Assembly (NCBI GenBank): GCA_034676525.1
Contig: JAUCCA010000012.1
Coordinates: 417,033 to 481,032, forward strand
Direction: 5' to 3'
Origin: Giesbergeria sp.
GTDB lineage: Bacteria > Pseudomonadota > Gammaproteobacteria > Burkholderiales > Burkholderiaceae_C
Length of the DNA: 64,000 bases
Under the pieces are notes generated by a model, which was given only the letters and a program-made list of their open reading frames with translations, was not told where the DNA came from and made no database searches. The position numbers were made by a program, and so were the translations under genes. The number at the start of each line of letters is the position of its first letter. Positions within the stretch are counted from its first letter, which is position 1. This document shows positions 2,157 through 18,860 of the stretch, one piece after another.

Positions 2157-3960
2157 CCACCAAGGCACCCACCGCTGCCGTCGACCCCGCCACCGCAAGG
2201 CGGATGCTGCGCGAGCAAGTCGCAACCTTGTTTGCCACCATCAAGAGCGCCACCGTAGCCGACGCCTTGTTGGCATGGACGGTTGGGGCGCTCTTCTATT
2301 GGCAGTTGCGCAGCCCCTGGGTGCTGGGCTGGCTAGGCCTTCACTTGCTGGAACTGCTGCGTTACCCGAGCCAGGCGGCCTACCACCGCGATCCGGCAGC
2401 AGCCGAGCGCAGCGCCTTCTGGGCGCGCCGGCATTGGCAGGAAATGCTGTTCTTCTCCTGCATCTGGGGAGCGCTCCCCTGGATGATGATGCCTGCCGAC
2501 AACCTGCCCATGACCTCGATGATCGTGCTCGTCATCGTCGGTCTGTGCAGCACGGCCTGCCGGCGGTGGCGGCGCGCTGGCCATCGGTGCTCGCTTTTGT
2601 GCTGCCCATGAATCTCGGCTTGATCAGTGCGCTGCTCTGGCACGGCAGCAACACCCATTGGTTTCTGGCTTTTTTTGTGGCGGTGTATTTGCTAGCCACC
2701 TTTCAAATCGCCCATGCCCTCAACAAGATGCTCACAGAGTCGCTGCTCGCGCGCTTCGAGAAAGAAGCGCTGGCCGAACAAATCGCCGAACAAATGGCGG
2801 TCACCCAGCGGCTGAGCGACGAGAAAACTCGCTTCTTTGCCTCGGCCAGCCACGACCTGCGCCAACCGCTGCACGCCATCGCCCTGTTTGGTGCCGTGCT
2901 GGAGCGGGAGCTGCACAGCCACAGCGCAGGCCAGCATGCAAAACGGCTGATGCAAGCCGTGCACGCCATGGGCACTTCCCTTGACACCATGCTGGACATG
3001 TCGCGCCTGGACGCTGGCGTGGTGCAAGCCGAGATGACTGCGGTGCCGATGAAACCCATGCTGCAAACCGTCAACCAGTTGTTCGCTTCGCGGGCAGAAG
3101 CCAAAGGTCTGCAACTGCGCGTGCGGACCACCGAGCTGTGGGTGCTGACCGATGCGCAGTTGCTGCAGCGTCTGCTCGCCAACCTGGTGGAAAACGCCAT
3201 CAAGTACACCCACCAGGGCGGCGTGCTGGTGATAGCGCGAGCCAAGCACGGCGAGGTCTGGATCGAAGTGCTCGACACCGGCCGAGGCATTGCACTTGAA
3301 AACCAGGACAAGATATTTGAGGCCTTCTATCAAATCGACAACCCCGGGCGCGAACGCAGCCACGGGCTGGGCATGGGTCTGTCCATCGTGCGCAGACTCG
3401 CCCATTTACTGAACCACCCTTTGCTTCTGACATCGCGCCCTGGCACAGGCACGCGGTTTCGCCTGAGGTTGCCTTTAGCCCCTAGCCCCGTCACCGATGG
3501 TGCACGCGATCAGGCAGGTTCGACGCTATCGGGAATACATCCCCGCGAGCCCGCTGAGCAAACCCCTGCGCTGGTCTTGCCTTCACCCGTTCTGCTGCTG
3601 GACGATGAGGCCGATATCGGCGATGCCATGACCGCCTTGCTCGCCTCCTACGGCGTGCAGCTCGAAGTGGTGAGAAACGAAGCCGCGGCGGAGCAAGCCT
3701 TCATAGAGGCGGATCTGGAGGCGCGGCCGTTTGCAGCCTTGATCTGCGACTACCGTTTGGCCGAAGGTGCTGATGGGCTGGAGACTGCCTTTCGTCTGAG
3801 GACCAAGTTCCATCCCGGCCTGCCTTTCCTTTTAGTCACTGGAGAGACTTCTCCACAGCGGCTGCAACGCGTTCGCGACAGTGGCGTGCCCGTGTTGTTC
3901 AAACCCGTCGTGGCTCAATCAATGATTCAAGCATTGGCAAGGCTGATTGCCAAAACCTGA
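2153..3960 (+). pseudogene. Membrane hybrid sensor histidine kinase (HisKA, HATPase, receiver) with a 1-nt frameshift near 2552-2555
   Basis: TM N-terminus read from TTG 2153, overlapping the regulator stop. It continues in another frame as GLPAVAARWPSV... into ASHDLRQPL (H-box), NLVENAIKYT, DTGRGI, GLGMGL and a receiver domain. Confidence 0.85.
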
Positions 3961-6546: not shown

Positions 6547-7782
6547 TCAGTGCGTCGGCAACCCGTCCAGCTCCTCGCTTGTCGGCTCAGCCTGAGGCTC
6601 ACGATGTCGGCTGGCCAGCCAGGGGGCGGGGGCATGGGCAACCCGGTTGCGTCCTTGGCGCTTGGCCTCGTATAAAGCTTCGTCGGCCCGTGCCAAGGTG
6701 CTCTCAATAGGCTCGCCGCGGTGATGTGTCGTCCAGCCGATGGAGACCGTCATCTGGATTTTCTCCTCGCCCACAACCATCGACGTGTGCTCCAAGCTTC
6801 TGCGCAAGCGCTCAAGCAGTTCCGCCGCATGGGCTTGCCGGGTGTCACACAGCAACAATACGAATTCTTCCCCTCCCCAGCGGGCGAACACATCGCCGCT
6901 GCGCAGTTCACGGCCCACGACCTTCGCAAACAGCTGCAGCGCTCGGTCGCCGGCGTTGTGGCCGTGCTGGTCGTTGATGGCCTTGAAGTGGTCTATGTCG
7001 AGCTGCGCGAGCAGAAGGCTGCGTCCGCTTCGTTCACAGCGAAGCAGTTCCAGCGCCATCAGTTCGGACATCTGCCGTCTGTTGAACAAGCCCGTGAGCT
7101 CATCGCGCATGGCCAATTCGCGAATTTGCACCAGTGCGACCTCCAGCTCACGCTTTTGACCACGCAGACGCGCCCGAATGCTCTGTACCTGTAAGCACAT
7201 CAACGTGCCCGCAAGCAGAGACAACAGCACGATGGTGAGATGGGCTGCCACCACTGCAATGGAAGGCTTTGAAGCCTCAAGGTAAGCGGCGCCGAGCACG
7301 GCAAGCGAATACAGGCCCATCGAGTAGAGCATGAGGAACACCGTCTGGCGCCGGTCGCGCCCGAAGATACCGAACATCAAAATAATGACCAGCACCGGAA
7401 GCACGAGCGCACGAACTGGGCCGGCAATAACGTAGGCGACCGCATTGCACGTCAGTGCCCACTGCATCTGAAACAGCGTCATGGAAGGGTCCGCCATGCG
7501 TTCGCTGTAGCCGCTTCTCACCATGAGCAGCGCAGCAGCCAGCCCACCGACCGCAAACGCCGACCACCAGTTAACCAAGCGCGGATCCATGTCGCCACTG
7601 GCCGCCAGCACCCGCATCGCCAAGGCGCAACACACCATCATCAGAGTGGCCAGCCCGGCCATGGTGGTGCGGCGACGCCGCTTCTCCTCGCTTCCGAGCA
7701 GGCGCGTCAACCACTGCGATGCGGGGGTGGCAGATTGGGGCACGAGACGCGTTAAGGAGAATGGGGAGCGCAGACAAAACAT
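6547..7782 (-). CDS. Membrane-bound diguanylate cyclase
   Basis: Multi-TM N-terminus, DELTGLFNRR, RSGD I-site and RWGGEEF. Start uncertain (7782 or a downstream ATG). Confidence 0.9.
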   Translation of the reverse strand: MFCLRSPFSLTRLVPQSATPASQWLTRLLGSEEKRRRRTTMAGLATLMMVCCALAMRVLAASGDMDPRLVNWWSAFAVGGLAAALLMVRSGYSERMADPSMTLFQMQWALTCNAVAYVIAGPVRALVLPVLVIILMFGIFGRDRRQTVFLMLYSMGLYSLAVLGAAYLEASKPSIAVVAAHLTIVLLSLLAGTLMCLQVQSIRARLRGQKRELEVALVQIRELAMRDELTGLFNRRQMSELMALELLRCERSGRSLLLAQLDIDHFKAINDQHGHNAGDRALQLFAKVVGRELRSGDVFARWGGEEFVLLLCDTRQAHAAELLERLRRSLEHTSMVVGEEKIQMTVSIGWTTHHRGEPIESTLARADEALYEAKRQGRNRVAHAPAPWLASRHREPQAEPTSEELDGLPTH

Positions 7783-7818
7783 AGGGGTCCGCGCATTGTG
7801 GACCCCTATGTTACTTTT
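7772..7818. terminator. Perfect 11-bp hairpin with T-rich tails on both strands
   Basis: CATAGGGGTCC (7780-7790), 9-nt loop, GGACCCCTATG (7800-7810). Followed by TTTTGTCT on minus and TTACTTTT on plus. Confidence 0.6.
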
Positions 7819-7934: not shown

Positions 7935-9872
7935 TTACGCTTTGGTGTCCAGCTCAGAAGCGATGATGGTTGGCGTGTGTGCTGCGGGCACAAACGCATC
8001 CGAGAAGCAGGCACCTTCTGCCAGACCCTGCGCAAGGAAAGCCGGCACAGCCGCGTCCACCATGCGCACGGAGCCACACAGGTACACCTCGTGACCGCTA
8101 AGGTCAGGGAAATCGGCCAGCATGGCTTCGTGGACCAATCCGGTGCGCCCCTTCCACCCATCGCCTTCGACCGACTCAGACACGACAGGCACCACGCTGA
8201 AGTTGCTGTGGTCGCTTTGCCACTGCTCGCAAAGCGCCAGCATGTACAGATCTTTGCTGTCGCGCACGCCCCAGTACAGGCGCATGGGCCGCGTAACGCC
8301 ACGGGCAAAGGCGTCTTCGACAATGCTCTTGATGGGTGCGAAACCCGTCGCGCCGGCAATAAAGAGAATCGGCTGTGCACCGTCGCGCAGCGTGAACTGA
8401 CCGCGCGGTCCTTCAAACTTGATGGTGTCGCCTACCTGCATGCCCTCAAACACGTGCGTGGTAAAGCGCCCACCCGGCACCAGCCGCACATGCAACTCGA
8501 TAAGTGCGTTGTTCTGCGGTGCATTTGCAAAGGAGAAGGCACGGCGCTCGCCGTTGTCCAGCACGATGTCGATGTACTGGCCGGCGTCAAAGGCCAGGCG
8601 ATCTGCGCCGGGGAGTTCAAGACGCAGGCGCATGACGTCTTCCGCCAAATGCTCCATGTGGACCACGCGCGCCTCGTACTGCGGAATTTCAACAGCGCTG
8701 GCGCCTGTAAACCCATCGACCGAAATGACGACGTCGCCGTTGGGCACCGCGCAGCACATCAGTGCCAGGCCGCGCGCCAACTGTGCATCGGACAGTGCCG
8801 CCTTCTGGTAGGGGCGGTGCTCGACCGTGCCCTGCTCCATGGTGCACATGCACAGCCCGCAGGCGCCGTTGCGGCACTCGTACGGCAAAGCAAGGCCGTC
8901 GCGCAGGCCCGCGTCAAGCAGCGTTTCGCCCGGGCGCAAGCTGAACTCAGCAGCGTTGCCGCCCTCGCCGCGCACGGTGGCGTGCAGGGTGCCTTGACCC
9001 TTTCGGCGGGGCTGCGGCCACAGCGGCAACAAGAGCAGGACGACCGTCAACACAGACACCAGCGCCCACACCCGCCCCAGCGGCCACTCGCTCAGCAGCG
9101 GATACAGCGCAAGCAGGAACCAGTCAAGCTTCACGTCCATCACGGCTTTGGCCAAGTCGGCTGCACCGCCTTGGCTCTGAACGGGCGCTACCAATGCCAT
9201 CACCAGAAACGTGACAACCAAGCCAATGATGGTTTCCCGTGGCGGCGTGGTGCGGGCCTTGGGCACCCGCTGCACGTGAATCCACATGACGAGCAGCACG
9301 ACCAGCGGCAGACCAATGTGCAGGAAAGAAAGCAGCGAGAAGAAGCGGTCGCTCACGCTGTCGGCATACACAAAGTTGCGCATCAGCGTGCCGCTAAACG
9401 GCGGCAGCCAGTCGAGCATTTCGAAGCTGGTAACCGTGACGTACTGCGCCAGCGCGTCCCACGGCAGCATGTAGCCATTGATGCCCGAGGCATAGACCAA
9501 CCAGATCAATGCGACCCCGGTGACCCAAGAGAACCAGCGGAAACCGTGGAAAAGATCAAACGCGAAATACCGCAGCATGTGCAGCATCATGGTAAGCACC
9601 ATGGCGTCCGATGCGTAGCGGTGCACGCTGCGCAGGATGCCGCCCAGCCACCACTGACCGTTGGTCAGCGACTCGACGGAATCGTATGCGCCCGAGACAC
9701 CGGTTTCAAAGAACGCATACAAATACAGCCCGGTACCGCCGACGATCCAGAAAAGAAAGAACGTGATCGAACCGAGGTGGTACAGAGGGTTGATGCGATC
9801 GCCAAAGGCACGATTGAACAGCGCCTCAACGCGCATGAACATCCACTGCAGGATCGATTGGAACGCTTTCAT
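7935..9872 (-). CDS. Fusion: cytochrome b (b/b6-type) + [2Fe-2S] ferredoxin + FAD/NAD(P)H reductase (FNR-like)
   Basis: Four heme-b His (SVHRY..MLHML, FLHIG..WIHVQR). CRNGACGLC...MCC ferredoxin. RAFSFAN, GPRGQF, AGATGFAP and YLCGS FNR motifs. Confidence 0.88.
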   Translation of the reverse strand: MKAFQSILQWMFMRVEALFNRAFGDRINPLYHLGSITFFLFWIVGGTGLYLYAFFETGVSGAYDSVESLTNGQWWLGGILRSVHRYASDAMVLTMMLHMLRYFAFDLFHGFRWFSWVTGVALIWLVYASGINGYMLPWDALAQYVTVTSFEMLDWLPPFSGTLMRNFVYADSVSDRFFSLLSFLHIGLPLVVLLVMWIHVQRVPKARTTPPRETIIGLVVTFLVMALVAPVQSQGGAADLAKAVMDVKLDWFLLALYPLLSEWPLGRVWALVSVLTVVLLLLPLWPQPRRKGQGTLHATVRGEGGNAAEFSLRPGETLLDAGLRDGLALPYECRNGACGLCMCTMEQGTVEHRPYQKAALSDAQLARGLALMCCAVPNGDVVISVDGFTGASAVEIPQYEARVVHMEHLAEDVMRLRLELPGADRLAFDAGQYIDIVLDNGERRAFSFANAPQNNALIELHVRLVPGGRFTTHVFEGMQVGDTIKFEGPRGQFTLRDGAQPILFIAGATGFAPIKSIVEDAFARGVTRPMRLYWGVRDSKDLYMLALCEQWQSDHSNFSVVPVVSESVEGDGWKGRTGLVHEAMLADFPDLSGHEVYLCGSVRMVDAAVPAFLAQGLAEGACFSDAFVPAAHTPTIIASELDTKA

Positions 9873-11329
9873 GAAGAAACCACCATTTCGCTGGCAGCGG
9901 GCAGGCCCGCGCCTGGATGGCGACGCATCGCGCGCACTGCCACCACAATGAACAAAACACCACCCACGATGGCAACCAGACCCCCCAGGCCCATCAACGC
10001 CATGCCTGCGACTTCCGCATTGGAGCGCAAGACCTGCTCAGCGCCCGCCACTTTGCGCTGTACGCCGTAGCCGCCCGACCACACCAATCCAACAATGTGC
10101 ATCAGCTGGCCGAGGCCATAAACCCAAGGCTGTGCAACCGCCAAGCGCCCCTTAGGCGCTGCGTATCCGAGGAATGGCAGCAGGTGGTACACGAGCCCCA
10201 TAAGCGCGAGCGTCACACCGACGATGCAGCCGTGGTAGTGCGCAGGGATGCGCACATTGCTGCCGCTGATGAAGATCCCGATCACCCCGCCGGCACCAAA
10301 CAGCAATATCGAAGACAGCACGGCAGCGCGCAGCGGGTGTTGCGTGTCGCGTGTGAGCGGCAAGCGGTACAGCGCCACGACCACCGCCAACGCCACCGGC
10401 ACGATGGCGGTGCCGCCGCCTGCGCGCATCGCCCACGTCAACAGCGCGCGGTGTTCCACCGAGCTGATGTCGTAGGCAAGGTAGGCCCAAGGCGTCACAA
10501 ACACGCCCACCAATGCCAACGCGAACATAAACAAAGTGACACGCGGACTCAGCCGCAAGGTCGCGCCGCAGGCATTCGCCAGCCACAGCCACCCCACCAA
10601 CATGAGCAGCGTCCAGGTGAATTGCAGCGCGTGGCCCCCACCCCAAAACAAAATCTCGTAATACGCTTTGCCGGTCAGCGAGAGCGGCAATTGCACAAAC
10701 GACCAGCCAAACGCGAGGAGCGCGACCACTGTGGCCACCGCTGCCGCGCCCAAGCCAAAGCCCAGCGCACCTCGGCCATCAAACGCCGTACCGAGGCGTG
10801 GCGCGGCCAAGATGCCGCGCAGCGCGAGCACACCGACACCCAGACCAAAAACCACAAGACCACCGAGGAACATCGGTGAGCGCAACACGGGAATGTAATT
10901 GGCCATGATCGGCTCGCCCGCGTTCAGGAAGGGCGCGAGCGTCATGGCGGCTGTGCCGATGGCACAGATCCAAAGCGCAGCCCACCCCCAACGCAGACCC
11001 TGGGCGGTGCCGTACAGACTCCAGAGCAGGCCCGCCATCGCCATGAACCACACGAGGACCGACAGGTCCACATGCAGCACCAAGGAAACATGAAAAAAGT
11101 CGGCTGCAGGTAGCAGCCGGTTTACGCCCGGTGTACGCGAGAGCACCAGCAGAATGGAAAAGAGGCCAGAGCCCACCAGCGCCACTAGGCCAAGCCACAA
11201 CCAGCCTCGTGCCAAGCTGCGGCGCGCATCCTGCGGGACGGCAAGCGAATAGTCTGCCGCGGCTGAGGCGGGCACGGGCCTAGCAGACCCGCCGGCGACA
11301 CCAATGGAAGACGGAGCGACCGCGCTCAT
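9869..11329 (-). CDS. Divergent heme-copper oxidase subunit I-like membrane protein lacking the helix VII His-His pair
   Basis: Multi-TM. LVLHVDLS (helix II His), FWGGGHALQF (helix VI His) and IPAHYHG (helix X HxH) are kept; the HH pair aligns to AY. Confidence 0.75.
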   Translation of the reverse strand: MSAVAPSSIGVAGGSARPVPASAAADYSLAVPQDARRSLARGWLWLGLVALVGSGLFSILLVLSRTPGVNRLLPAADFFHVSLVLHVDLSVLVWFMAMAGLLWSLYGTAQGLRWGWAALWICAIGTAAMTLAPFLNAGEPIMANYIPVLRSPMFLGGLVVFGLGVGVLALRGILAAPRLGTAFDGRGALGFGLGAAAVATVVALLAFGWSFVQLPLSLTGKAYYEILFWGGGHALQFTWTLLMLVGWLWLANACGATLRLSPRVTLFMFALALVGVFVTPWAYLAYDISSVEHRALLTWAMRAGGGTAIVPVALAVVVALYRLPLTRDTQHPLRAAVLSSILLFGAGGVIGIFISGSNVRIPAHYHGCIVGVTLALMGLVYHLLPFLGYAAPKGRLAVAQPWVYGLGQLMHIVGLVWSGGYGVQRKVAGAEQVLRSNAEVAGMALMGLGGLVAIVGGVLFIVVAVRAMRRHPGAGLPAASEMVVSS

Positions 11330-11829
11330 AGCAACACGATGCCTCCGCGTTCGGCATCGAAGTCAATGACCAGCACTTGTGAAGGTTTGAGATTCACAGT
11401 CGCTTCGTGCTGGTGGTTAAACCCGTCGGTCGCGTTGGTGTCGCGCATACGCACCGTAATGCGGTGCGTGCCAGCGCCGACCTCCAGGCGCTTGTAGACA
11501 GTGGAAGCACCATCGCGCGAGAGCCCTGACGGTGCGGCGGTGTGGCGATAGGCAGGCTTACCGTCGATGTCGAGCTCCACCGTCACGGAAGCACGTTCGC
11601 GCTCGCACTTGAGTGGCGCGCGCATGTTGGGCGCCAACTTGGCGAGCTCCTCTGCCGTATAGGGGCGGCACTCTGCAACGCGCTGCCCGTGGTGGACGAA
11701 GCTCAGCTTGATGAGCGCCTCATCCGCCGCGAGCGGCGAGAACGCTGGCCACTGCGAAAAAACGCCTACCAGCAGCGCAAAACTGCCGTACAGCAGTGCT
11801 TGGCCTGCGAGGACGAAAACGCGATTCAT
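11326..11829 (-). CDS. Membrane-anchored hypothetical protein (one TM, beta-rich soluble domain, 2 Cys)
   Basis: 4-nt overlaps with both neighbours; N-terminal hydrophobic helix; HHG and C..C motifs. Confidence 0.8.
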   Translation of the reverse strand: MNRVFVLAGQALLYGSFALLVGVFSQWPAFSPLAADEALIKLSFVHHGQRVAECRPYTAEELAKLAPNMRAPLKCERERASVTVELDIDGKPAYRHTAAPSGLSRDGASTVYKRLEVGAGTHRITVRMRDTNATDGFNHQHEATVNLKPSQVLVIDFDAERGGIVLL

Positions 11830-13490
11830 GCAAAAGACTCCGAATGGACAAAAGATTCTGCCGTGCGCACGCGCAGGGCCTTGAGCGCGGCCGCGAGCGC
11901 GGCCTCATCACCAGCATCGACGGCAACCAGCGACCAAGCTTCCTTCGGTACGCTGGCACGCAGGCGTGGCTCACGTTGACCGTTAAGACGCTCGCGCGTC
12001 CAGCGCTCACCCAGCCGAAATTCGCAGCCGCCTTCACGACAAGTCGCCACCAGCACGCCAGTGGCGCCTGCACGCAAGGCGTATTCAAGAAACGATGGCG
12101 GCAGCAAACCTGTGCACACCAGCGGCAGCGTCAAGACATCGTCCGCGGCAACCCCGGCCAGCTGCGCGCCTTGCGCACAGCCAAACACCACAAAGCGCTG
12201 AGACCCTGAAAGTGCCGCAAGACCAGCCAGCATCTGCTGGCGCAATGCATCAATCGGCCATTGCGGCATGTCGATACCAGTATGCAGCACCTGCGCGCTG
12301 CGAAACGGCGTGGACGATGGGCAAGAGCCCACGCAAATGCCGCAACTGGCACACAAGTCGCTGCGCACCTGCGCCAGCTCCATGCCCACACGGCCGTTGG
12401 GATGCGGCACCATGGTGATCGCCGCGTAAGGGCAGTCTTCGACGCAGCGCCGGCAGCCGCTGCAGTGGTCGGGGTTGACCTCAGCGACCGCTTGCTCCAG
12501 CGCCAGTGGACGCCACGCGGTATGCGAAGTGGCGGGTGCGCCCAAATTTGACAGAAGCGCCGGCGCTACTGCCAACGCGGGGCGGCGACGCAGACCCAAC
12601 CATGGCAAAGCCACAAGCACAGCCATCACCAGCCCGAGCAGGCCCCACACCGCTCCCGCGGATGTGGCTGCGGTCAGGGGATGGATGAAAAGCAGCCACC
12701 AGTCGTACGCCAGCGCTTGCGGCACGGTGCTCAAGTCTGCGGGACCCTGACTGCGCACTGGCAAGAAGGCCGCGAGCATAAGCATGGCCAATAGCGTGCC
12801 AATTGCCAGCGTGCGCGGCGGGAACACTGAAGCGCGACTAATGCGCTGCACGTGGAACCACAAACCAAACACCAGCAAAAGGGGCACGCCCAAGTGCACA
12901 AAGACGAACAGCGAGAACAGCCGGTCGTTCAACTGCGTGCCACTCAGAAAATTGCGCGCCAGCGGCGAGGCCAGCCCGGGCAGTACATCAAGCCACTCGG
13001 CTGTCGCTGTGGCGGAAAACTGCCCGAGGCGGTCCCAGTTCAGCCAGAAGCCGCCAATCGCAGAAACGAAAAGGAGCGGCAGCAGCGGGACGCCCGTCAG
13101 CCAAGACGCTGCGCGAAAACTCCGAAATCGCCCCAACATCCATTCGCGCAGCACGTGCGCCAGCACCACCACGACCATGGCGTCGGCGCTGTAGCGGTGC
13201 AGGCCGCGCAGCAGGCTGCCCCACTGCCTAGGCTCGCGCGACAACGCATCAATTGATTGGTAGGCGCCACTGGCTGAGGTGTCGAGCACGGCATACAGAA
13301 TCACTCCGCTGAACACCAGAAGCCACAGCAACCAGAAACCCAGCGCACCCAGATGCTTGAGAGGATTGCCACTGACTCCCGCCAGTGCGTCGAATCCGTG
13401 CTCGCACGCGCGCCAAAGCCTTGCCGACGCGTGCGGCGCCACCGCAATGGGGAGCGAACTGGAAGAGGCAGCCATATGCGGCGAATTCAC
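11826..13490 (-). CDS. Fusion: cytochrome b + 2x[4Fe-4S] ferredoxin + MvhD/FlpD-like [2Fe-2S] domain
   Basis: Four heme His (GLHRY..LAHVL, FVHLG..WFHVQR). CSGCRRCVEDCP and CASCGICVGSCP. C-terminal VFGC...VCTG...GATGVLVATCREGGCEF matches the MvhD pattern. Confidence 0.85.
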   Translation of the reverse strand: MNSPHMAASSSSLPIAVAPHASARLWRACEHGFDALAGVSGNPLKHLGALGFWLLWLLVFSGVILYAVLDTSASGAYQSIDALSREPRQWGSLLRGLHRYSADAMVVVVLAHVLREWMLGRFRSFRAASWLTGVPLLPLLFVSAIGGFWLNWDRLGQFSATATAEWLDVLPGLASPLARNFLSGTQLNDRLFSLFVFVHLGVPLLLVFGLWFHVQRISRASVFPPRTLAIGTLLAMLMLAAFLPVRSQGPADLSTVPQALAYDWWLLFIHPLTAATSAGAVWGLLGLVMAVLVALPWLGLRRRPALAVAPALLSNLGAPATSHTAWRPLALEQAVAEVNPDHCSGCRRCVEDCPYAAITMVPHPNGRVGMELAQVRSDLCASCGICVGSCPSSTPFRSAQVLHTGIDMPQWPIDALRQQMLAGLAALSGSQRFVVFGCAQGAQLAGVAADDVLTLPLVCTGLLPPSFLEYALRAGATGVLVATCREGGCEFRLGERWTRERLNGQREPRLRASVPKEAWSLVAVDAGDEAALAAALKALRVRTAESFVHSESFA

Positions 13491-14347
13491 ATTCGGCGAG
13501 GTCGCCCACGGTTGCGCCGACTCGCCCGCAATTCATTGATGAAGAACACGATCATGACAATGAAAAAAGTGATGCCACCTGCCACCTGGATCGGTAAGGT
13601 GTAGTCCGCTCGGTACTCGCCTGTCTTGATGTCGTACACCGTGCACACGAGGCGAATGCGCTCGAACAGCGTGTCGAGCACGCGGTCATGGAAAACAGGA
13701 GAGCCAGCCAGAAGCAGCCGAAGGGGTTCGCCCAGATCGGCGGCATTGAGTTGCTCGCCATAGATTTGCCGCACGATGCGGCCTTGCGAATCCACCAGGC
13801 TGAGCTGCAGAACGTGGTCAAAACCGGCAGGCGTAGATTTGTACAAAAAACCAAAATCGCGCGTCAACGCCGGCACGTCTGCCGCGCGGGGGCTAAGGAA
13901 TTCCCAGTTGTCTCTGCCGATACGAAACTGCGCGGCAAATGCCTTGAGCGCTTCTGGAGAATCCTCTGGCTGGTTAAAGCCAATACTCACGACATTGAAT
14001 TGGCCCGGGCCGACACTCTTTTGCAATGCGTCGACGGCAATCTGCAGCGCACGCGTTGTGCCGGGACAGATTTGGAAACAACCGGTGTAGATGAAGCTCA
14101 CCAGCAGGGGTTTGCCGCGATAGCTTGAAAGCGACACCGTGCGGCCCGAGCGGTCGCGGAACAAATGCTCGCCCAGCTCCCTCCCGACTGCGTCTTCGCT
14201 CGCGCGCAATGCGAGGCGCGCGTCAAGCCCGAGCGTGGCGGCCTGCTCAGAGCCGTGCGTGATCGCTTGCGCGGGCAGCGACAGCAGGCATGCCCACCCC
14301 ACCACCCACACCAGCACCAGGGCAGTCAGGGAGCGGGATCGACACAT
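13487..14347 (-). CDS. SCO1/SenC-family copper chaperone
   Basis: FIYTGCFQICP (CxxxC), FDHVL His, thioredoxin-like fold and C-terminal TM. Confidence 0.9.
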   Translation of the reverse strand: MCRSRSLTALVLVWVVGWACLLSLPAQAITHGSEQAATLGLDARLALRASEDAVGRELGEHLFRDRSGRTVSLSSYRGKPLLVSFIYTGCFQICPGTTRALQIAVDALQKSVGPGQFNVVSIGFNQPEDSPEALKAFAAQFRIGRDNWEFLSPRAADVPALTRDFGFLYKSTPAGFDHVLQLSLVDSQGRIVRQIYGEQLNAADLGEPLRLLLAGSPVFHDRVLDTLFERIRLVCTVYDIKTGEYRADYTLPIQVAGGITFFIVMIVFFINELRASRRNRGRPRRM

Positions 14348-14360
14348 AGCAAACTCTCGT

Positions 14361-15260
14361 TCAACGGATCAGGCCGTCCACACAGGCGGCCACGAGCAAG
14401 GTGCTCAATTGGATCAAAGAGGCAAAAAACGCCGACATCGCGTGCGCACGCGTCACTTCGCGCGCCAGCACCCAAGATTTGTACACAAAATGCGCACCGC
14501 CGAAGAATGCGCCAACGGCATACACAGGGCCTGCGCCGTAGAACACAGGAAGCAAAGACGCCACCAACAGTGCGACGGTGCTGACGAACACAATGTGCGC
14601 TGCCCGCTCGTTGCCTACCACCACCGGCAACATTGGCACACCGGCTTGCGCATAGTCGGCGCGGTTGGCAATCGCCAGCGCCCAAAAGTGCGGCGGCGTC
14701 CAGAGAAACAGCACCAACGCAAGCAGCATCGGCAGCGGCCCCAGCGCAGGATCGACTGCCGCGGCGCCTGCCAACACGGCAAAACTGCCGGCCAAGCCGC
14801 CAATCACGATGTTCATGGAGCTGCGGCGCTTGAGCCACACCGTATACACAAAAGCGTAGAAGAAAGCGCCAAGAAACACATAGACGGCAGCAGCGCCGTT
14901 GAGCACCAACCACGCCGCTGCCACCGACCCCACGAGCATGGCGGCCATCAGCACCAACCACGCGGGGTGGTGTGGCAGCGCGCCGGTGACAAAAGCACGC
15001 CGACGCGTGCGCGCCATTAGATGGTCGCTGTTGTGTTCAAAGTACTGATTGAACGCGCCTGCACTGGCGGAAGCCACCAACACAGACAGCGCCAACACCA
15101 GCACCTGAAGCCAGCTGGGCGCTGGGCCAGGTGTTACCACCATGCCCACCAGCGCCGTCACCATGATGAGCGAGCCTATGCGCAGCTTGAACAACGAGAT
15201 GACGTCGCGCGTGCGCTGCACGGCCAGGCTGCGCGCGGGTTGAATCGTGTCGGTGCCCAT
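14361..15260 (-). CDS. ctaB: Protoheme IX farnesyltransferase (heme o synthase)
   Basis: LFKLRI, NQYFEHNSDHLMARTRRR, YTVWLKRR and LWTPPHFWAL. Start at ATG 15260. Confidence 0.92.
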   Translation of the reverse strand: MGTDTIQPARSLAVQRTRDVISLFKLRIGSLIMVTALVGMVVTPGPAPSWLQVLVLALSVLVASASAGAFNQYFEHNSDHLMARTRRRAFVTGALPHHPAWLVLMAAMLVGSVAAAWLVLNGAAAVYVFLGAFFYAFVYTVWLKRRSSMNIVIGGLAGSFAVLAGAAAVDPALGPLPMLLALVLFLWTPPHFWALAIANRADYAQAGVPMLPVVVGNERAAHIVFVSTVALLVASLLPVFYGAGPVYAVGAFFGGAHFVYKSWVLAREVTRAHAMSAFFASLIQLSTLLVAACVDGLIR

Positions 15261-15274
15261 GGCTTGGCTTTCTT

Positions 15275-17002
15275 TCAGGACATGCCCCACAGCTGGGCGA
15301 GGTACTTCCAGTTGATGAAGTAGTACAGCACGAATGCCACCAGGAACACCATGGCCAGCACGAAGCTTCCAGGTGCTACCAAGCCAGCCGACCCGTAAGT
15401 CTGCGCAGCCGCTGTACGTGCAGTCGGTGGAATCGGCGTGAAGCGTGGACTCACAACACCTTGATCGAGCTTCTTGCCCCACAGCAACGAACCGACCGTG
15501 ATGTAGATGTACAGAGCGCCGCCGGCGATGGCCGCCATACCGCCAATACCTACGAGGCCCATCATCAGATAGGCAGCGCCTGGCCATTCATACGCCAGTG
15601 CCGCGCCGCTGAACGCCATGTCCCAGTGCCTGCGCGAGACGCCCAAGGTGCCGGCACCCATCATGACCAAGCAGAAGAAGTACATCGAGAAACCGAAGAG
15701 GTAAGGCTGAATTTTTGCCAGCCCCGGAGAGATGGTTTCGCGCTTGAACAGCACTGGAATCAGGTAGTACGTGAGCGCCATGAACGTCAGCGTCGTGCCG
15801 ACCACCACAGTTGCATGGAAGTGACCAGGCACATAAATGGTGTTGTGAATGATCAGGTTGAGCTGCTCGGTACCCATCATGACGCCCGAAATACCGCCCA
15901 GGAAGCCAAAGCCGACGATGGAGATGAACACACCTGAGAACGTCGGGTTGCCCCAAGGCGCTTTGCGCAGCCACTCAAACAGGCCCTTGTTGTAGCCCTT
16001 GGCGCGTTGCGCCACTTCCATGGCACCGGGAACGGTCAAGCCGTGGATCATCGAAGCCAACACAGCGAAATACATGAAGTAGCTGGTGTTAACGATTTTC
16101 CACTCGGTACTCACACCCGGGTCGGCAAGCAGGTGGTGCGCACTAGCAAGCTGCAAAAACAAGATGTAAAGCAGGAAGGCGCCGCGACTGACGCGCTCGG
16201 ACATGGGCTTGGCGCCAAAACAAACCGCAGCTACCAGGTACCAGATCGAGATGTGCGCCGCTACGTTAATCTGCTGCGACGAGTGACCGAAGGCCCACCA
16301 GATGGTCCGGTAGATCAGCGGGTCGACGTTGTCGATCAGGCCAAGCGCCAGAAGATAGGTGGGGATCAGGATGATCGCGCCAGAGACGATGGTGAACACT
16401 GCAATGATGGCCGCAACGATGGCGCCGAACGTCACCAGCGGCACCGAGCCCTGATAGGTCTTGTCGCGCTTGGCTACCACCAGCGTGCCAAAGAACACGA
16501 AGCAAGCGATCAATGCGCCGACCGCAAAGAGGATCAGACCCAGGTAAAACCAAGGCGTGGCCATCATGGGCACATAAGACGTCATCATCACGCTGGAGCC
16601 GCCGCGGAACACGTCGATGTTGTTCATGACGGCGCCGACCAGCATGAGCGCGTAGGCCAACCATGCCATTTTGGGCGTGGCGATTCGACAGCGCAGCAGC
16701 GTTGAGGCACAGAAATACAGCACCGCGACCTCAAAGAAGATCATCCAGAAGATGAGCATGTTGATGCCGTGCGCGGTAAGCACCAGATAGAACGTGTCGG
16801 CGGCCAGCCAGTGCACGGCGGGCCAGCGCGTCAGCACCACGCCGATGGCGAGGATGCCGCCAACGAGCAAGGCGACCACAGCGGTCACCGCGTTGAAGAT
16901 CATCAGACGTTCGGCGCTGCGTTCGAACTGAAGGCCCGAACGCGGGCAAGTACGGTAGGTGGTGGCGCTGCCTGAGGCGAGCGCAGCAGAAGTTGCGGCC
17001 AT
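15275..17002 (-). CDS. Heme-copper oxidoreductase subunit I, B-family-derived, eNOR-type nitric oxide reductase
   Basis: All six His present (TAHG, GHSSQQIN, SAHH, GHFH). The H+4 Tyr of O2 reductases is Gln (codon 16271-16273). No cytochrome c subunit; partner is a CuA subunit II. Confidence 0.82.
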   Translation of the reverse strand: MAATSAALASGSATTYRTCPRSGLQFERSAERLMIFNAVTAVVALLVGGILAIGVVLTRWPAVHWLAADTFYLVLTAHGINMLIFWMIFFEVAVLYFCASTLLRCRIATPKMAWLAYALMLVGAVMNNIDVFRGGSSVMMTSYVPMMATPWFYLGLILFAVGALIACFVFFGTLVVAKRDKTYQGSVPLVTFGAIVAAIIAVFTIVSGAIILIPTYLLALGLIDNVDPLIYRTIWWAFGHSSQQINVAAHISIWYLVAAVCFGAKPMSERVSRGAFLLYILFLQLASAHHLLADPGVSTEWKIVNTSYFMYFAVLASMIHGLTVPGAMEVAQRAKGYNKGLFEWLRKAPWGNPTFSGVFISIVGFGFLGGISGVMMGTEQLNLIIHNTIYVPGHFHATVVVGTTLTFMALTYYLIPVLFKRETISPGLAKIQPYLFGFSMYFFCLVMMGAGTLGVSRRHWDMAFSGAALAYEWPGAAYLMMGLVGIGGMAAIAGGALYIYITVGSLLWGKKLDQGVVSPRFTPIPPTARTAAAQTYGSAGLVAPGSFVLAMVFLVAFVLYYFINWKYLAQLWGMS

Positions 17003-17017
17003 TGCTGTGTGCTCCTG

Positions 17018-17557
17018 CTATTTGACGTAGAGGCGCCCCACCATCGTGTGGTGGTTGATGCCGCAAAACTCGTTACAAACGATGGAGAACTGACCCGATT
17101 GATTGGGCGTAATCTTCATCACGTGCTCATACCCAGGCACCACCTGGATGTTGATGTTGGTCGGCTGCAGAGAGAAGCCGTGGTTGTAATCCATAGAAGT
17201 CATGTGCAGCTTGTAGGTTTTGTCTTTTTCAAGCTCAAGAATGGGCCACCAGGACCACAGACGCCCGATGAGATAGATGTCGCTGCCCTCAGGCGGATGC
17301 ACGACGGGAATCTTTTCGTCGGTCTCGGTGCGGACGGTGTACTTGTCGACCATGGCCTGCGTCTTGGCAGCAAACATGTCCGGCGTCGTCTTGTAGGTTT
17401 CGGTGGAGAGGTTCTGCTTGCCGTAGATGTGCCAGCCGACCATCATGAAGAACATGACCATGCACCAAGCAAAGGCGATGGCGATCCAGAGGCCTTCGAC
17501 GCGGTCCAGGGGATGTTTCCACCAGAGCCGTTCGGCGGGGGGAAGAATTGCGCTCAT
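17018..17557 (-). CDS. CuA-containing subunit II (single TM, ba3/eNOR-type)
   Basis: DYNHGF and CNEFCGINHHTM CuA ligands; one N-terminal TM helix. Confidence 0.92.
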   Translation of the reverse strand: MSAILPPAERLWWKHPLDRVEGLWIAIAFAWCMVMFFMMVGWHIYGKQNLSTETYKTTPDMFAAKTQAMVDKYTVRTETDEKIPVVHPPEGSDIYLIGRLWSWWPILELEKDKTYKLHMTSMDYNHGFSLQPTNINIQVVPGYEHVMKITPNQSGQFSIVCNEFCGINHHTMVGRLYVK

Positions 17558-17573
17558 GTGCGGGCTCCTGGGG

Positions 17574-17729
17574 TTACTTGGCCATGGGAATGGTCAAGAT
17601 TTCGATCACCCCCCACAGTGAGTACACGACCATCGGGACCATCACCCCGATGAACAGTAACAAAAAAGGGTTGTCGAGCAGCTGCTGAATCATCGGCACC
17701 TTCTCGTTTTCGTCGTTATCGTGTTCCAT
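17574..17729 (-). CDS. Small single-TM protein (subunit IIa-like), 51 aa
   Basis: GAGGAG RBS before ATG 17729; one hydrophobic helix; first gene of the operon. Confidence 0.75.
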   Translation of the reverse strand: MEHDNDENEKVPMIQQLLDNPFLLLFIGVMVPMVVYSLWGVIEILTIPMAK

Positions 17730-17788
17730 ACTCTCTCCTCGTTGACCAAAAGGTTCACATGATTGTCTCGTTTGGAGGCAGCATAGAC

Positions 17789-17802
17789 TTGATCTGCGAC
17801 AA
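17789..17802 (-). promoter_or_regulatory. FNR/DNR/NnrR-type box
   Basis: TTGATCTGCGACAA versus consensus TTGAT-N4-ATCAA (2 mismatches). Centred about 41 nt upstream of a start inferred from a GACAAT -10-like hexamer (17767-17762). Confidence 0.65.
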
Positions 17803-17894
17803 GGTCTACAGAAAGACGCCTTAAGGGTAAGCACTTAGTTCGCACAAACCACACACCTTTTGGTGGATGTTCTTTTTTGTTGTAAGCAGTACGT

Positions 17895-18860
17895 ATGCAC
17901 GCACCTTCCTCCCCTGACCCCGCGCCGCATCGGCGCCTTTTTTTGCGCCGTGCGGCCTGGATTTGTGCTGTTTTGGTGCTGGTGGTGACAAGCGCCAGCG
18001 CTTTTTTGCGTCAATCTGGCGCCGGTCTGGGTTGCACACCGTGGCCCGCCTGCCACGCCAGCGCGGCGCGCGCCGACGTCGAACGCCCTGCGCCCAGCGC
18101 GGCTGAGCACACGGCTCGCGCCGTGCACCGAGTCGTCGCTTCGTCCTTATTGCTTCTGCTGATGGCCATGACGGCCTTTGCCTGGACAGGCAAGCCGCGG
18201 TTGGCGGTAGAAGGGCGCGTGGTCTTGGTGGCCCTCGGGCTGGTGCTGTTCCTTGCGGTGCTTGGCGTCTTCACTGCCAAGGCTCGCGCGCCAGCGATCA
18301 CCCTTGGCAATCTGTTGGGAGGCCTGCTGCTGTTTGCCGCGTGTGTCCGGCTCGCCGTTACCGCGTGTGCCATCGCCGAACCGCAGCGCAAACACCTGCA
18401 GCGCTGGGCGCTCGTGTCCGGCACCCTGTTGCTCGTGCAGATCGGTTTGGGCGCACTGATCAGCGCCGGGTATGCAGGGTTGAGCTGCCCCGAGCTAAGC
18501 AGCTGCAGCCCAGGCGCCCATGCTTGGGAAGCGTTGAGCCTGCTTCACCCACCCGGAGATGGGGCTGGAATGCCCGGTTATGCGGAGGGCGTTGGCATCC
18601 AACTCCTGCACCGCCTCGCGGCGTTGGCAGTGATGGTGGCGCTTGCAGCATTGGCAAGGTCCGCGTGGCAGGCCCGGCGGCGAGTCGAGGCGGCTGCGCT
18701 CGGGGTGCTCGCTGTACTTCAAGTGGGTTTGGGTGCGACGCTGGTGCTCAGTCAATTGCCGCTGGGCGCAGCGCTTGCGCACAACCTGGTTGCCGCGCTG
18801 CTGCTGGGAACGGTGGCGGCACTCATCGCAGCATCCGCGCGGGTGTCGCCTCGGTTGTGA
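17895..18860 (+). CDS. ctaA: Heme A synthase (CtaA/COX15 family)
   Basis: SGAGLGCTPWPAC, HRVVA, AGLSCPELSSC, HRLAA and AHNL; 8-TM pattern; divergent from the oxidase operon. Confidence 0.82.
   Translation: MHAPSSPDPAPHRRLFLRRAAWICAVLVLVVTSASAFLRQSGAGLGCTPWPACHASAARADVERPAPSAAEHTARAVHRVVASSLLLLLMAMTAFAWTGKPRLAVEGRVVLVALGLVLFLAVLGVFTAKARAPAITLGNLLGGLLLFAACVRLAVTACAIAEPQRKHLQRWALVSGTLLLVQIGLGALISAGYAGLSCPELSSCSPGAHAWEALSLLHPPGDGAGMPGYAEGVGIQLLHRLAALAVMVALAALARSAWQARRRVEAAALGVLAVLQVGLGATLVLSQLPLGAALAHNLVAALLLGTVAALIAASARVSPRL

What the first reader, a model, noticed from the sequence alone, without database searches (positions are those of the whole stretch)
15275..17729. The apparent cytochrome c oxidase is probably an eNOR-type nitric oxide reductase
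Seen: helix VI reads GH-S-S-Q-Q-IN, so Gln occupies the H+4 position. The H+15 Tyr and a helix VIII Ser (ASMIH) match K-channel-analogue positions of ba3 oxidases. A CuA subunit II and a one-helix IIa-like gene are present. Established: every O2-reducing heme-copper oxidase has a His-Tyr cross-link, and B-family-derived NORs replace the Tyr. As I recall, Gln marks the eNOR family characterised in Rhodothermus marinus. Inference: this organism reduces NO to N2O with a possibly proton-pumping enzyme that norB-based surveys miss.
Basis: partly seen in the sequence, partly recalled or inferred. Interest (0 to 1): 0.78.

Follow-up and report, generated by a model that had tools for sequence, protein, structure and literature searches.

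The report
Ordinary eNOR nitric oxide reductase operon

Summary
The enzyme type is not new.

- **Active site.** Subunit I (15275-17002, minus strand) keeps all six haem and metal histidines of haem-copper enzymes. It has Gln244 exactly where ba3 oxidase has the cross-link Tyr237. That change is the published diagnostic of eNOR.
- **Phylogeny.** It falls in a fully supported clade of Gln-bearing sequences, together with Thermus, Thermomicrobium, Defluviimonas and haloarchaeal homologues. The clade is separate from ba3, A-family, C-family and cNOR sequences.
- **Partner genes.** The CuA subunit II, a 51-aa one-helix gene, haem O synthase, a SCO protein and haem A synthase are all present. A conserved FNR/NNR-like box lies upstream.
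- **Genome inventory.** The genome has narG and nirS but no cNOR, qNOR or nosZ.
- **Relatives.** In 201 genomes of the same family, eNOR is in 20. Seventeen of these have nirS.
- **Complementarity.** Among the 45 nirS genomes, eNOR and NorB nearly exclude each other.
- **Accessory genes.** The operon continues into a copper-site-less oxidase paralogue and two dihaem cytochrome b fusion proteins. A 2026 preprint already noted these in Ferrigenium.
- **Not tested.** Enzyme activity, the non-haem metal, the haem type and proton pumping were not tested.

The parts
17789..17802 (-). FNR/DNR/NNR-type box (TTGTCGCAGATCAA on the coding strand), centred 66 nt upstream of the first ATG of the operon
   Evidence: One search found the site and one search shows its context. 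A box matching at least 8 of 10 consensus positions lies upstream of the orthologous gene in 58 of 77 related loci. In the closest relatives it sits at the same 66-69 nt distance.
17574..17729 (-). 51-aa one-helix protein, in the position that subunit IIa holds in the ba3 operon
   Evidence: The ATG at 17729 follows GAGGAG. There is one hydrophobic helix at about residues 20-42. Orthologues with the LLDNPFLLL motif precede subunit II in Thermus, Thermomicrobium and Defluviimonas. There is no Pfam hit, so homology to ba3 IIa is not shown.
17018..17557 (-). eNOR subunit II, a membrane-anchored CuA cupredoxin
   Evidence: It matches Pfam COX2. The best solved relatives are T. thermophilus ba3 subunit II and its CuA domain, with E about 1e-15. 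H126, C161, C165, H169, M172 and E21 are conserved in 79 orthologues.
15275..17002 (-). eNOR subunit I, the catalytic subunit, with Gln244 in place of the cross-link Tyr
   Evidence: It scores 214 bits on Pfam COX1. The best solved relatives are B-family oxidases: 7deg at 6e-50 and ba3 at 1e-44. The Gln clade is shown.
14361..15260 (-). Haem O synthase (CtaB/CyoE)
   Evidence: It scores 260 bits on TIGR01473, above the 210-bit cut-off. It is conserved after subunit I in most loci.
13487..14347 (-). SCO1/SenC-family protein, a likely copper chaperone for CuA
   Evidence: It matches Pfam SCO1-SenC at 7e-13. Its position is conserved.
11826..13490 (-). Dihaem cytochrome b fused to 2x[4Fe-4S] and an MvhD/FlpD-like domain (accessory, role unknown)
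   Evidence: Pfam domains are. Four His, eight ferredoxin Cys and four further Cys are conserved in 59 orthologues. It is conserved in eNOR loci and on the Defluviimonas plasmid.
11326..11829 (-). 167-aa anchored protein with no family match (accessory, role unknown)
   Evidence: It has no Pfam or NCBIfam hit. H46, C54 and C75 are conserved in 66 orthologues.
9869..11329 (-). Copper-site-less paralogue of subunit I (HCO2; called 'eNOR scaffold protein' in the Ferrigenium preprint)
   Evidence: It scores only 42 bits on Pfam COX1. It keeps H86, H233, H364 and H366 but lacks the helix VII His pair. It branches inside the B-derived superclade. It occurs in 19 of 20 eNOR genomes and in 0 of 181 others in the family sample.
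7935..9872 (-). Dihaem cytochrome b fused to a [2Fe-2S] ferredoxin and an FAD/NAD(P)H reductase domain (accessory, role unknown)
   Evidence: Domains are (BenC-like, 212 bits, below the cut-off). Four His, the 2Fe-2S Cys and the R444..S447 motif are conserved in 58 orthologues.
17895..18860 (+). Haem A synthase (CtaA/COX15), divergently transcribed
   Evidence: It matches Pfam COX15-CtaA at 3e-31. It holds the same divergent position in about half of the related loci. The literature says CtaA is common in eNOR operons.

Best explanation
This is an eNOR-type nitric oxide reductase, and it is most likely the organism's respiratory NO-to-N2O enzyme.

**Proposed path (inferred).** A periplasmic donor, such as cytochrome c, reduces the CuA centre of subunit II. 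Electrons pass to the low-spin haem (His78/His396) and then to the binuclear centre. That centre is a high-spin haem on His394 plus a non-haem metal on His240, His289 and His290. Gln244 occupies the H+4 position that holds the cross-link Tyr in oxidases and the FeB-ligand Glu in cNOR. Without the Tyr the site cannot supply the fourth electron for O2 reduction. It can still carry out the two-electron reduction of 2 NO to N2O.

**Protons (inferred).** They probably enter from the cytoplasm through a ba3-like K-channel analogue: E21 of subunit II, then S268, Y255, S317, H320 and T323. That would make the reaction electrogenic.

**Supporting genes.** CtaB and CtaA supply haem a-type cofactors, and the SCO protein supplies copper for CuA. 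An FNR/NNR-type regulator probably switches the operon on at low O2 or in the presence of NO.

**Shown here:** the sequence features, the phylogeny, the gene context and the comparative distribution. **Inferred:** activity, the non-haem metal, the haem type and energy conservation.
For: - **Diagnostic residue.** Gln sits at the Tyr237 position. It is invariant in 86 eNOR-type sequences. It is the published diagnostic of eNOR.
- **Phylogeny.** The Gln clade has 100/99-100/100 support. It includes the T. thermophilus plasmid copy, which carries the His-to-Lys haem ligand variant that Murali et al. describe for some eNORs. It also includes Thermomicrobium and a haloarchaeon (literature).
- **Partner features.** The CuA ligands and a conserved Glu before the subunit II helix are present. 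The K-channel analogue residues are conserved. CtaB, SCO and CtaA lie in the cluster, as reported for eNOR operons.
- **Own genome.** It has narG and nirS. It has no nosZ of clade I or II. Its five haem-copper genes are one A-family, two C-family, the eNOR and HCO2, so there is no cNOR or qNOR.
- **Family sample of 201 genomes.** 17 of 20 eNOR genomes have nirS, against 28 of 181 without eNOR (Fisher p = 4e-10).
- **Complementarity.** Among the 45 nirS genomes, 25 have NorB only, 15 have eNOR only, 2 have both and 3 have neither (p = 3e-7).
- **Proximity to nirS.** eNOR lies 5-15 kb from nirS in 7 genomes.
- **Regulation.** A conserved FNR/NNR-type box lies upstream.
- **Published activity.** The R. 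marinus eNOR reduces NO and not O2. The Ferrigenium eNOR proteins were detected under denitrifying conditions.
Against: - No activity, expression or cofactor data exist for this organism.
- The characterised R. marinus sequence (Rmar_0161) could not be fetched. The link to it rests on the shared diagnostic residue and on published trees, not on my own tree.
- Only one eNOR has been characterised, and its turnover was low (0.68 NO per second at 25 C).
- The non-haem metal is unknown.
- In this genome the operon is not next to nirS; the two are on different contigs.
- Other NO-consuming enzymes (flavohaemoglobin, flavodiiron protein) were not searched for.
Confidence: 0.85

Rival explanations
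1. It is an NO-handling enzyme used mainly for detoxification or signalling, not for respiration. Alternatively, it catalyses a related but different reaction at the Gln-containing site, in the way the long-unassigned 'cytochrome a1-like' haemoprotein of Magnetospirillum was once viewed.
For: The only measured eNOR turnover is low. The Becker preprint notes expression under microoxic as well as denitrifying conditions and raises a detoxification role. The T. thermophilus plasmid copy sits beside an Rrf2 regulator and a DUF542 protein, which is a stress-type context.
Against: eNOR and NorB are strongly complementary among nirS genomes. eNOR often lies close to nirS. Both fit a role as the pathway's NOR. 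R. marinus denitrifies with eNOR as its only NOR.
Confidence: 0.1
2. It is still an O2 reductase, that is, a divergent ba3-type oxidase that works without the His-Tyr cross-link or uses another tyrosine.
For: The closest solved structures are ba3-type oxidases. Haem A synthesis genes and CuA are oxidase-like features. Tyr279 is invariant on helix VII.
Against: No O2-reducing haem-copper enzyme without the Tyr is known. The R. marinus eNOR showed no O2 reduction. Tyr279 is also present in the Tyr-bearing sister groups. It lies 10 residues before the His pair, not 6 as in the C-family, so it is not a compensating residue. The genome already has one A-family and two C-family oxidases.
Confidence: 0.03
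3. It is a decaying or non-functional oxidase copy.
For: None beyond the missing Tyr.
Against: The frames are intact. Identity is 82-97% across genera. There are 86 invariant positions across phyla, including every ligand except the sixth, which varies only in Thermus. The multi-gene synteny and the upstream box are conserved.
Confidence: 0.02

Closest known systems
eNOR family of haem-copper NO reductases (Hemp & Gennis 2008; R. marinus Rmar_0161 characterised in Murali et al. 2024, PMC11214002)
   Same: It has Gln at the cross-link Tyr position, three His at the non-haem metal site, a CuA subunit II and a ba3-like K-channel analogue. CtaA and CtaB lie in the cluster. It occurs in nirS denitrifiers that lack cNOR and qNOR.
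   Different: No difference of kind was found. It is a betaproteobacterial (Comamonadaceae-type) copy with His/His ligation of the low-spin haem.
eNOR operon of Ferrigenium straubiae (Becker et al., bioRxiv 10.64898/2026.01.22.701106)
   Same: The gene content is the same: eNOR II and I, haem O synthase, sco1, the 'eNOR scaffold protein', one cytochrome b-FeS-FAD-NADH fusion and one cytochrome b-FeS fusion.
   Different: The preprint calls the two cytochrome b genes unusual and proposes them as marker genes for Ferrigenium-dominated communities. Here the same set is found in dozens of Burkholderiales and other genomes, so it is not Ferrigenium-specific. This operon also has a divergent ctaA.
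ba3-type (B-family) cytochrome c oxidase of Thermus thermophilus (PDB 1ehk and others)
   Same: It shares the fold, the six metal-ligand His, the CuA subunit II, the gene order small peptide-II-I, and the K-channel positions S261, Y248, S309 and T315.
   Different: Tyr237 is replaced by Gln, Val236 by Gln, Trp239 by Asn, Thr312 by His and Tyr244 by Ile. It falls in a separate clade.
cNOR (NorBC)
   Same: The proposed reaction is the same. A polar, non-Tyr residue sits at H+4: Glu in the HLWVEG motif of NorB, Gln here.
   Different: cNOR is C-family-related, uses a cytochrome c subunit instead of CuA and has no cytoplasmic proton channel. It is very distant in the tree.

Membership tests
eNOR | Haem-copper superfamily subunit I with the six canonical His ligands | tested here: met
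   H78, H240, H289, H290, H394 and H396 align with ba3 H72, H233, H282, H283, H384 and H386. Pfam COX1 scores 214 bits.
eNOR | Gln at the position of the cross-linked Tyr (H+4 in helix VI) | tested here: met
   Q244 aligns with ba3 Y237 in both the HMMER and the MAFFT alignment. It is invariant in 86 sequences. The criterion comes from PMC8756737.
eNOR | Phylogenetic placement in the B-family-derived Gln clade, together with taxa published as eNOR holders | tested here: met
   The clade has 100/99 support and contains Thermus, Thermomicrobium, Defluviimonas and a haloarchaeon. Thermus and Halobacteria are listed as eNOR ingroup in PMC8756737. The R. marinus sequence itself was not available for the tree.
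eNOR | CuA-containing subunit II | tested here: met
   H126, C161, C165, H169 and M172 are present. The best solved relative is ba3 subunit II.
eNOR | Conserved proton channel resembling the B-family K-channel | tested here: met
   S268, Y255, S317 and T323 fall on ba3 S261, Y248, S309 and T315. H320 is invariant at the T312 position. E21 of subunit II is conserved. Function of the channel was not tested.
eNOR | Haem a-type (As) cofactors, with CtaA/CtaB often in the operon | tested here: inconclusive
   The ctaB and ctaA genes are present in the cluster. The haem type itself cannot be read from sequence.
eNOR | Reduces NO to N2O and does not reduce O2 | not testable with these tools
   This needs enzyme assays. 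The indirect support is the co-occurrence with nirS and the complementarity with NorB.
B-family O2 reductase (ba3) | His-Tyr cross-link tyrosine at H+4 | tested here: not met
   The position holds Gln244. No eNOR-specific substitute Tyr was found.
cNOR/qNOR | Glu at H+4 (HLWVEG), C-family relatedness, and a cytochrome c or quinol donor module instead of CuA | tested here: not met
   It has Gln, not Glu, and a CuA subunit. It is very distant from NorB in the tree.
sNOR / bNOR (CuANOR) | Asn at the active-site position | tested here: not met
   Table A4 of PMC8756737 gives N for sNOR and CuANOR. This protein has Q244. No sNOR or bNOR reference sequences were available for the tree.
gNOR | One metal-site His replaced by Asp, and a subunit II without CuA ligands | tested here: not met
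   All three metal-site His are present and the CuA ligands are present.

The most novel reading that the evidence does not exclude
In Burkholderiales the eNOR may be only the catalytic core of a ten-gene module. The strictly co-inherited copper-site-less paralogue, the 167-aa anchored protein and the two dihaem cytochrome b fusion proteins would form a dedicated electron-input or maturation complex. One fusion ends in a 2Fe-2S/FAD/NAD(P)H reductase and the other in a 2x[4Fe-4S]-MvhD domain. Such a complex could link cytoplasmic NAD(P)H or quinol directly to NO reduction, or run in reverse, bypassing the bc1 complex and cytochrome c. That would be a respiratory arrangement not yet demonstrated.
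Probability: 0.2. Interest if true: 0.65.

Novelty: new member of a known kind. Interest (0 to 1): 0.25.

Why it matters
[quoted passage not shown] Gene-based surveys that count norB would score this organism, and about a third of its nirS-bearing relatives, as lacking an NO reductase.

The genome has no nosZ. If the enzyme works as predicted, the organism ends denitrification at N2O, a greenhouse gas.

The complementarity with NorB across a bacterial family adds independent comparative support for the published function of eNOR. Beyond that the finding is ordinary. The open question lies in the conserved accessory genes, not in the reductase itself.

Tried and rejected
- **R. marinus anchor.** I could not fetch Rmar_0161 with the available collections. 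I used named plasmid-borne homologues from Thermus, Thermomicrobium and Defluviimonas and a haloarchaeal representative instead.
- **A substitute tyrosine.** The invariant Tyr279 on helix VII is shared with the Tyr-bearing sister groups and is in the wrong register, so it is not a substitute.
- **A Glu-His metal site in HCO2.** I first read 'VEHR' in the second paralogue as a Glu-His metal site. Alignment and conservation show the His pair is absent: only E292 is conserved and the neighbouring His is not.
- **NO-sensor context upstream.** The NahK-like kinase at 2275-3960 has no NosP-like gene beside it; its neighbour is a LuxR-type response regulator. I dropped this lead.
- **Promoter and terminator scans.** The sigma-70 and terminator consensus scans gave nothing useful for the operon ends.
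- **Pfam CoxIIa.** It gave no hit for the small gene, so 'IIa-like' rests on position and topology only.
- **Supplementary datasets.** Those of PMC11214002 are not held.
Full report
**What is at the site**

The minus strand between 17729 and 7935 carries one co-directional string of genes.
- A 51-aa one-helix protein lies at 17574-17729. Its ATG follows GAGGAG.
- A CuA subunit II lies at 17018-17557.
- A haem-copper subunit I of 575 aa lies at 15275-17002.
- Haem O synthase lies at 14361-15260.
- A SCO1/SenC protein lies at 13487-14347.
- A cytochrome b-2x[4Fe-4S]-FlpD fusion lies at 11826-13490.
- A 167-aa protein without any family match lies at 11326-11829.
- A second, very divergent COX1-family protein lies at 9869-11329.
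- A cytochrome b-[2Fe-2S]-FAD/NAD fusion lies at 7935-9872.

Haem A synthase (17895-18860) is transcribed divergently.

**Check of the observation**

The best solved relatives of subunit I are B-family oxidases: 7deg chain A at E = 6e-50 and T. thermophilus ba3 at about 1e-44. In those alignments GH240SSQQ244 lies on GH233P(I/V)VY237, so Gln244 occupies the position of the cross-link tyrosine.

A MAFFT alignment numbered on ba3 gives the same result. It also shows:
- all six metal-ligand histidines are present;
- Y255 aligns with Y248, S268 with S261, S317 with S309 and T323 with T315;
- His320 stands where ba3 has T312.

I then aligned 86 eNOR-type sequences: 81 from Burkholderiales-type loci, plus Thermus, Thermomicrobium, Defluviimonas, a metagenomic representative and a haloarchaeon. 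H78, H240, Q243, Q244, N246, Y255, H289, H290, S317, H320 and H394 are invariant in all of them. H396 is replaced only in Thermus, by Lys.

Subunit II has the CuA ligands and a conserved Glu just before its helix.

**What it is**

PMC8756737 states that Gln at this site distinguishes eNOR from oxidases and from other NORs. Its Table A4 lists Y for oxidases, E for cNOR and qNOR, N for sNOR and CuANOR, Q for eNOR and D for gNOR.

Murali et al. (PMC11214002) purified the R. marinus eNOR. They showed NO reduction and no O2 reduction, found haem As in both haem sites, and noted CtaA in many eNOR operons. They also noted a K-channel like that of the B family, and a His/Lys-ligated low-spin haem in some members.

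I built two maximum-likelihood trees. They included 50%-identity cluster representatives, the genome's own A- and C-family enzymes, a NorB and fragments of ba3 and 7deg copied.
- All Gln-bearing sequences form one clade with 100/100 and 100/99 support.
- The query groups with Comamonadaceae-type sequences, then with a Defluviimonas plasmid copy (61.5% identity).
- Next come a metagenomic sequence, the T. thermophilus HB5018 plasmid copy (48.9% identity, the His/Lys variant) with a Natrarchaeobius sequence, and Thermomicrobium roseum.
- The clade lies within a B-family-related superclade. Its neighbours are archaeal sequences that still have Tyr (motif GHxxQY).
- It is well separated from classical ba3, the A family, the C family and cNOR.

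**Context in the genome**

The assembly is 99.99% complete. It holds five COX1-family genes: one A-family, two C-family, the eNOR and the divergent paralogue. It has no cNOR or qNOR. A NorB query that finds both types in relatives finds nothing here.
- narG is present.
- napA is absent.
- nirS is present.
- Neither clade of nosZ is present; the only hits are the CuA domain of eNOR subunit II.
- A NirK-like fusion protein scores below the NirK cut-off.

The predicted pathway therefore runs from nitrate to N2O and stops there.

**Comparative test of function**

I searched an even sample of 201 genomes of the same family.
- eNOR is in 20 of them.
- 17 of those 20 have nirS, against 28 of the 181 without eNOR (Fisher p = 4e-10).
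- The three exceptions are fragmentary hits or an incomplete genome.
- Among the 45 nirS genomes, 25 have NorB only, 15 have eNOR only, 2 have both and 3 have neither (p = 3e-7).
- In seven genomes the eNOR gene lies 5-15 kb from nirS.

This near-exclusive pattern is what one expects if eNOR fills the NOR step. It does not depend on the active-site argument.

**Regulation**

An FNR/CRP-family palindrome (TTGTCGCAGATCAA) is centred 66 nt upstream of the first ATG. A box matching at least 8 of 10 consensus positions is found upstream of the orthologous gene in 58 of 77 loci. In the nearest relatives it sits at the same distance. By my own estimate about 10% would be expected by chance in 250 nt. 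Control by O2 or NO is therefore likely, but it is inferred.

**How common it is**

More than 584 species-level genomes encode a relative, and the 80 best are 82-97% identical. [quoted passage not shown] No NCBIfam model comes near its cut-off.

PMC8756737 already reports eNOR in Alpha-, Beta-, Gamma- and Deltaproteobacteria. Murali et al. count 547 eNORs in GTDB genomes and name Accumulibacter and Gallionellaceae KS as holders. Earlier notes of this scan reached the same verdict for look-alike operons in other genomes. I treated those notes as leads and tested the claims here.

**The rest of the operon**

The accessory genes are conserved with eNOR in nearly all loci that are long enough, though their order varies.

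*The divergent paralogue.* It keeps the helix II His, the helix VI His and the helix X HxH, but lacks the helix VII His pair. E292 is conserved there instead. In the family sample it occurs in 19 of 20 eNOR genomes and in none of the other 181.

*The two cytochrome b fusions.* Each keeps four His, which fits two b haems, together with its full set of cluster cysteines.

*What is already published.* The Becker et al. preprint describes the same set in Ferrigenium straubiae. It calls the paralogue a 'scaffold protein' of unknown function. It proposes a quinol:NAD+ oxidoreductase role for the FAD/NADH fusion and suggests the genes as marker genes for Ferrigenium-dominated communities. The wide distribution seen here argues against that marker use. 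What these proteins do remains open.

**Limits**

- The R. marinus sequence was not in my tree.
- The identity of the non-haem metal, the haem type and proton pumping are all inferred.
- Other NO-consuming enzymes were not searched for.

**Verdict**

This is a typical new member of a known family. Interest is low for the reductase itself and moderate for the unexplained accessory module.

Noticed in passing
window 9869-11329 (-): A second haem-copper subunit I paralogue keeps both haem-ligand sets and the helix VI His but lacks the helix VII His pair. E292 is conserved in 58 orthologues. In the family sample it is found in 19 of 20 eNOR genomes and in 0 of 181 others, always beside the eNOR genes. 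Its function is unknown; a 2026 preprint calls it the 'eNOR scaffold protein'.
   Followed up: partly
window 11826-13490 (-) and 7935-9872 (-): Two dihaem cytochrome b fusion proteins are conserved in eNOR clusters. One carries 2x[4Fe-4S] plus an MvhD/FlpD-like domain. The other carries a plant-type [2Fe-2S] plus an FAD/NAD(P)H reductase. The Ferrigenium preprint proposes them as marker genes for Ferrigenium-dominated communities, but they occur in dozens of Burkholderiales and other genomes.
   Followed up: partly
window 11326-11829 (-): A 167-aa N-terminally anchored protein has no Pfam or NCBIfam match. H46, C54 and C75 are conserved in 66 orthologues. It usually lies beside the cytochrome b-FeS fusion, and a similar-sized hypothetical gene holds that position on the Defluviimonas plasmid.
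   Followed up: partly
window 15275-17002 (-), residue 19 of subunit I: A cytoplasmic N-terminal Cys in a C-x3-G-L motif, before the first helix, is invariant in all 86 eNOR-type sequences from Proteobacteria, Thermus, Thermomicrobium and a haloarchaeon. ba3 has no equivalent segment in the alignment.
   Followed up: no
own genome, contig C8:2359668-2361821 (+), outside the window: A 717-aa frame combines an N-terminal membrane domain, a two-cupredoxin NirK-like core (HxxDFH and YHCx..H..GM motifs) and a C-terminal CxxCH cytochrome c. It scores 172 bits on the NirK model, below the 296-bit cut-off. It may be a second, fused nitrite reductase beside NirS.
   Followed up: partly
representatives P0177, P0199, P0206 and P0262, not in the window: This is a well-supported sister family of haem-copper-like proteins. 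Its helix VI reads FHxxHY, the first His of the helix VII pair is Tyr, and the proximal His of the high-spin haem is Tyr. One member is from a Dehalococcoidia MAG. I could not assign it to a named family.
   Followed up: no
L096 (T. thermophilus HB5018 plasmid pHB5018d) 7307-10392: The Thermus eNOR copy (small peptide, subunit II and subunit I with the His-to-Lys haem ligand) lies beside an Rrf2-family regulator and a DUF542 protein, and near a multicopper oxidase and a cytochrome c. This looks like an NO-stress or denitrification islet on a plasmid.
   Followed up: no
window 16001-18000: G+C falls to 57% over the eNOR subunit I and II genes, against 61-66% in the neighbouring stretches. eNOR is present in only about 10% of genera of the family, and 84-85% identical copies occur in Steroidobacteraceae and Lysobacterales MAGs. 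Together this suggests horizontal spread of the cluster.
   Followed up: no
window 7778-7812: A perfect 16-bp-stem hairpin lies about 120 nt downstream of the last gene of the operon, inside the nominal 5' end of the following GGDEF frame. It may mark the operon's end and a later true start of the GGDEF gene.
   Followed up: no
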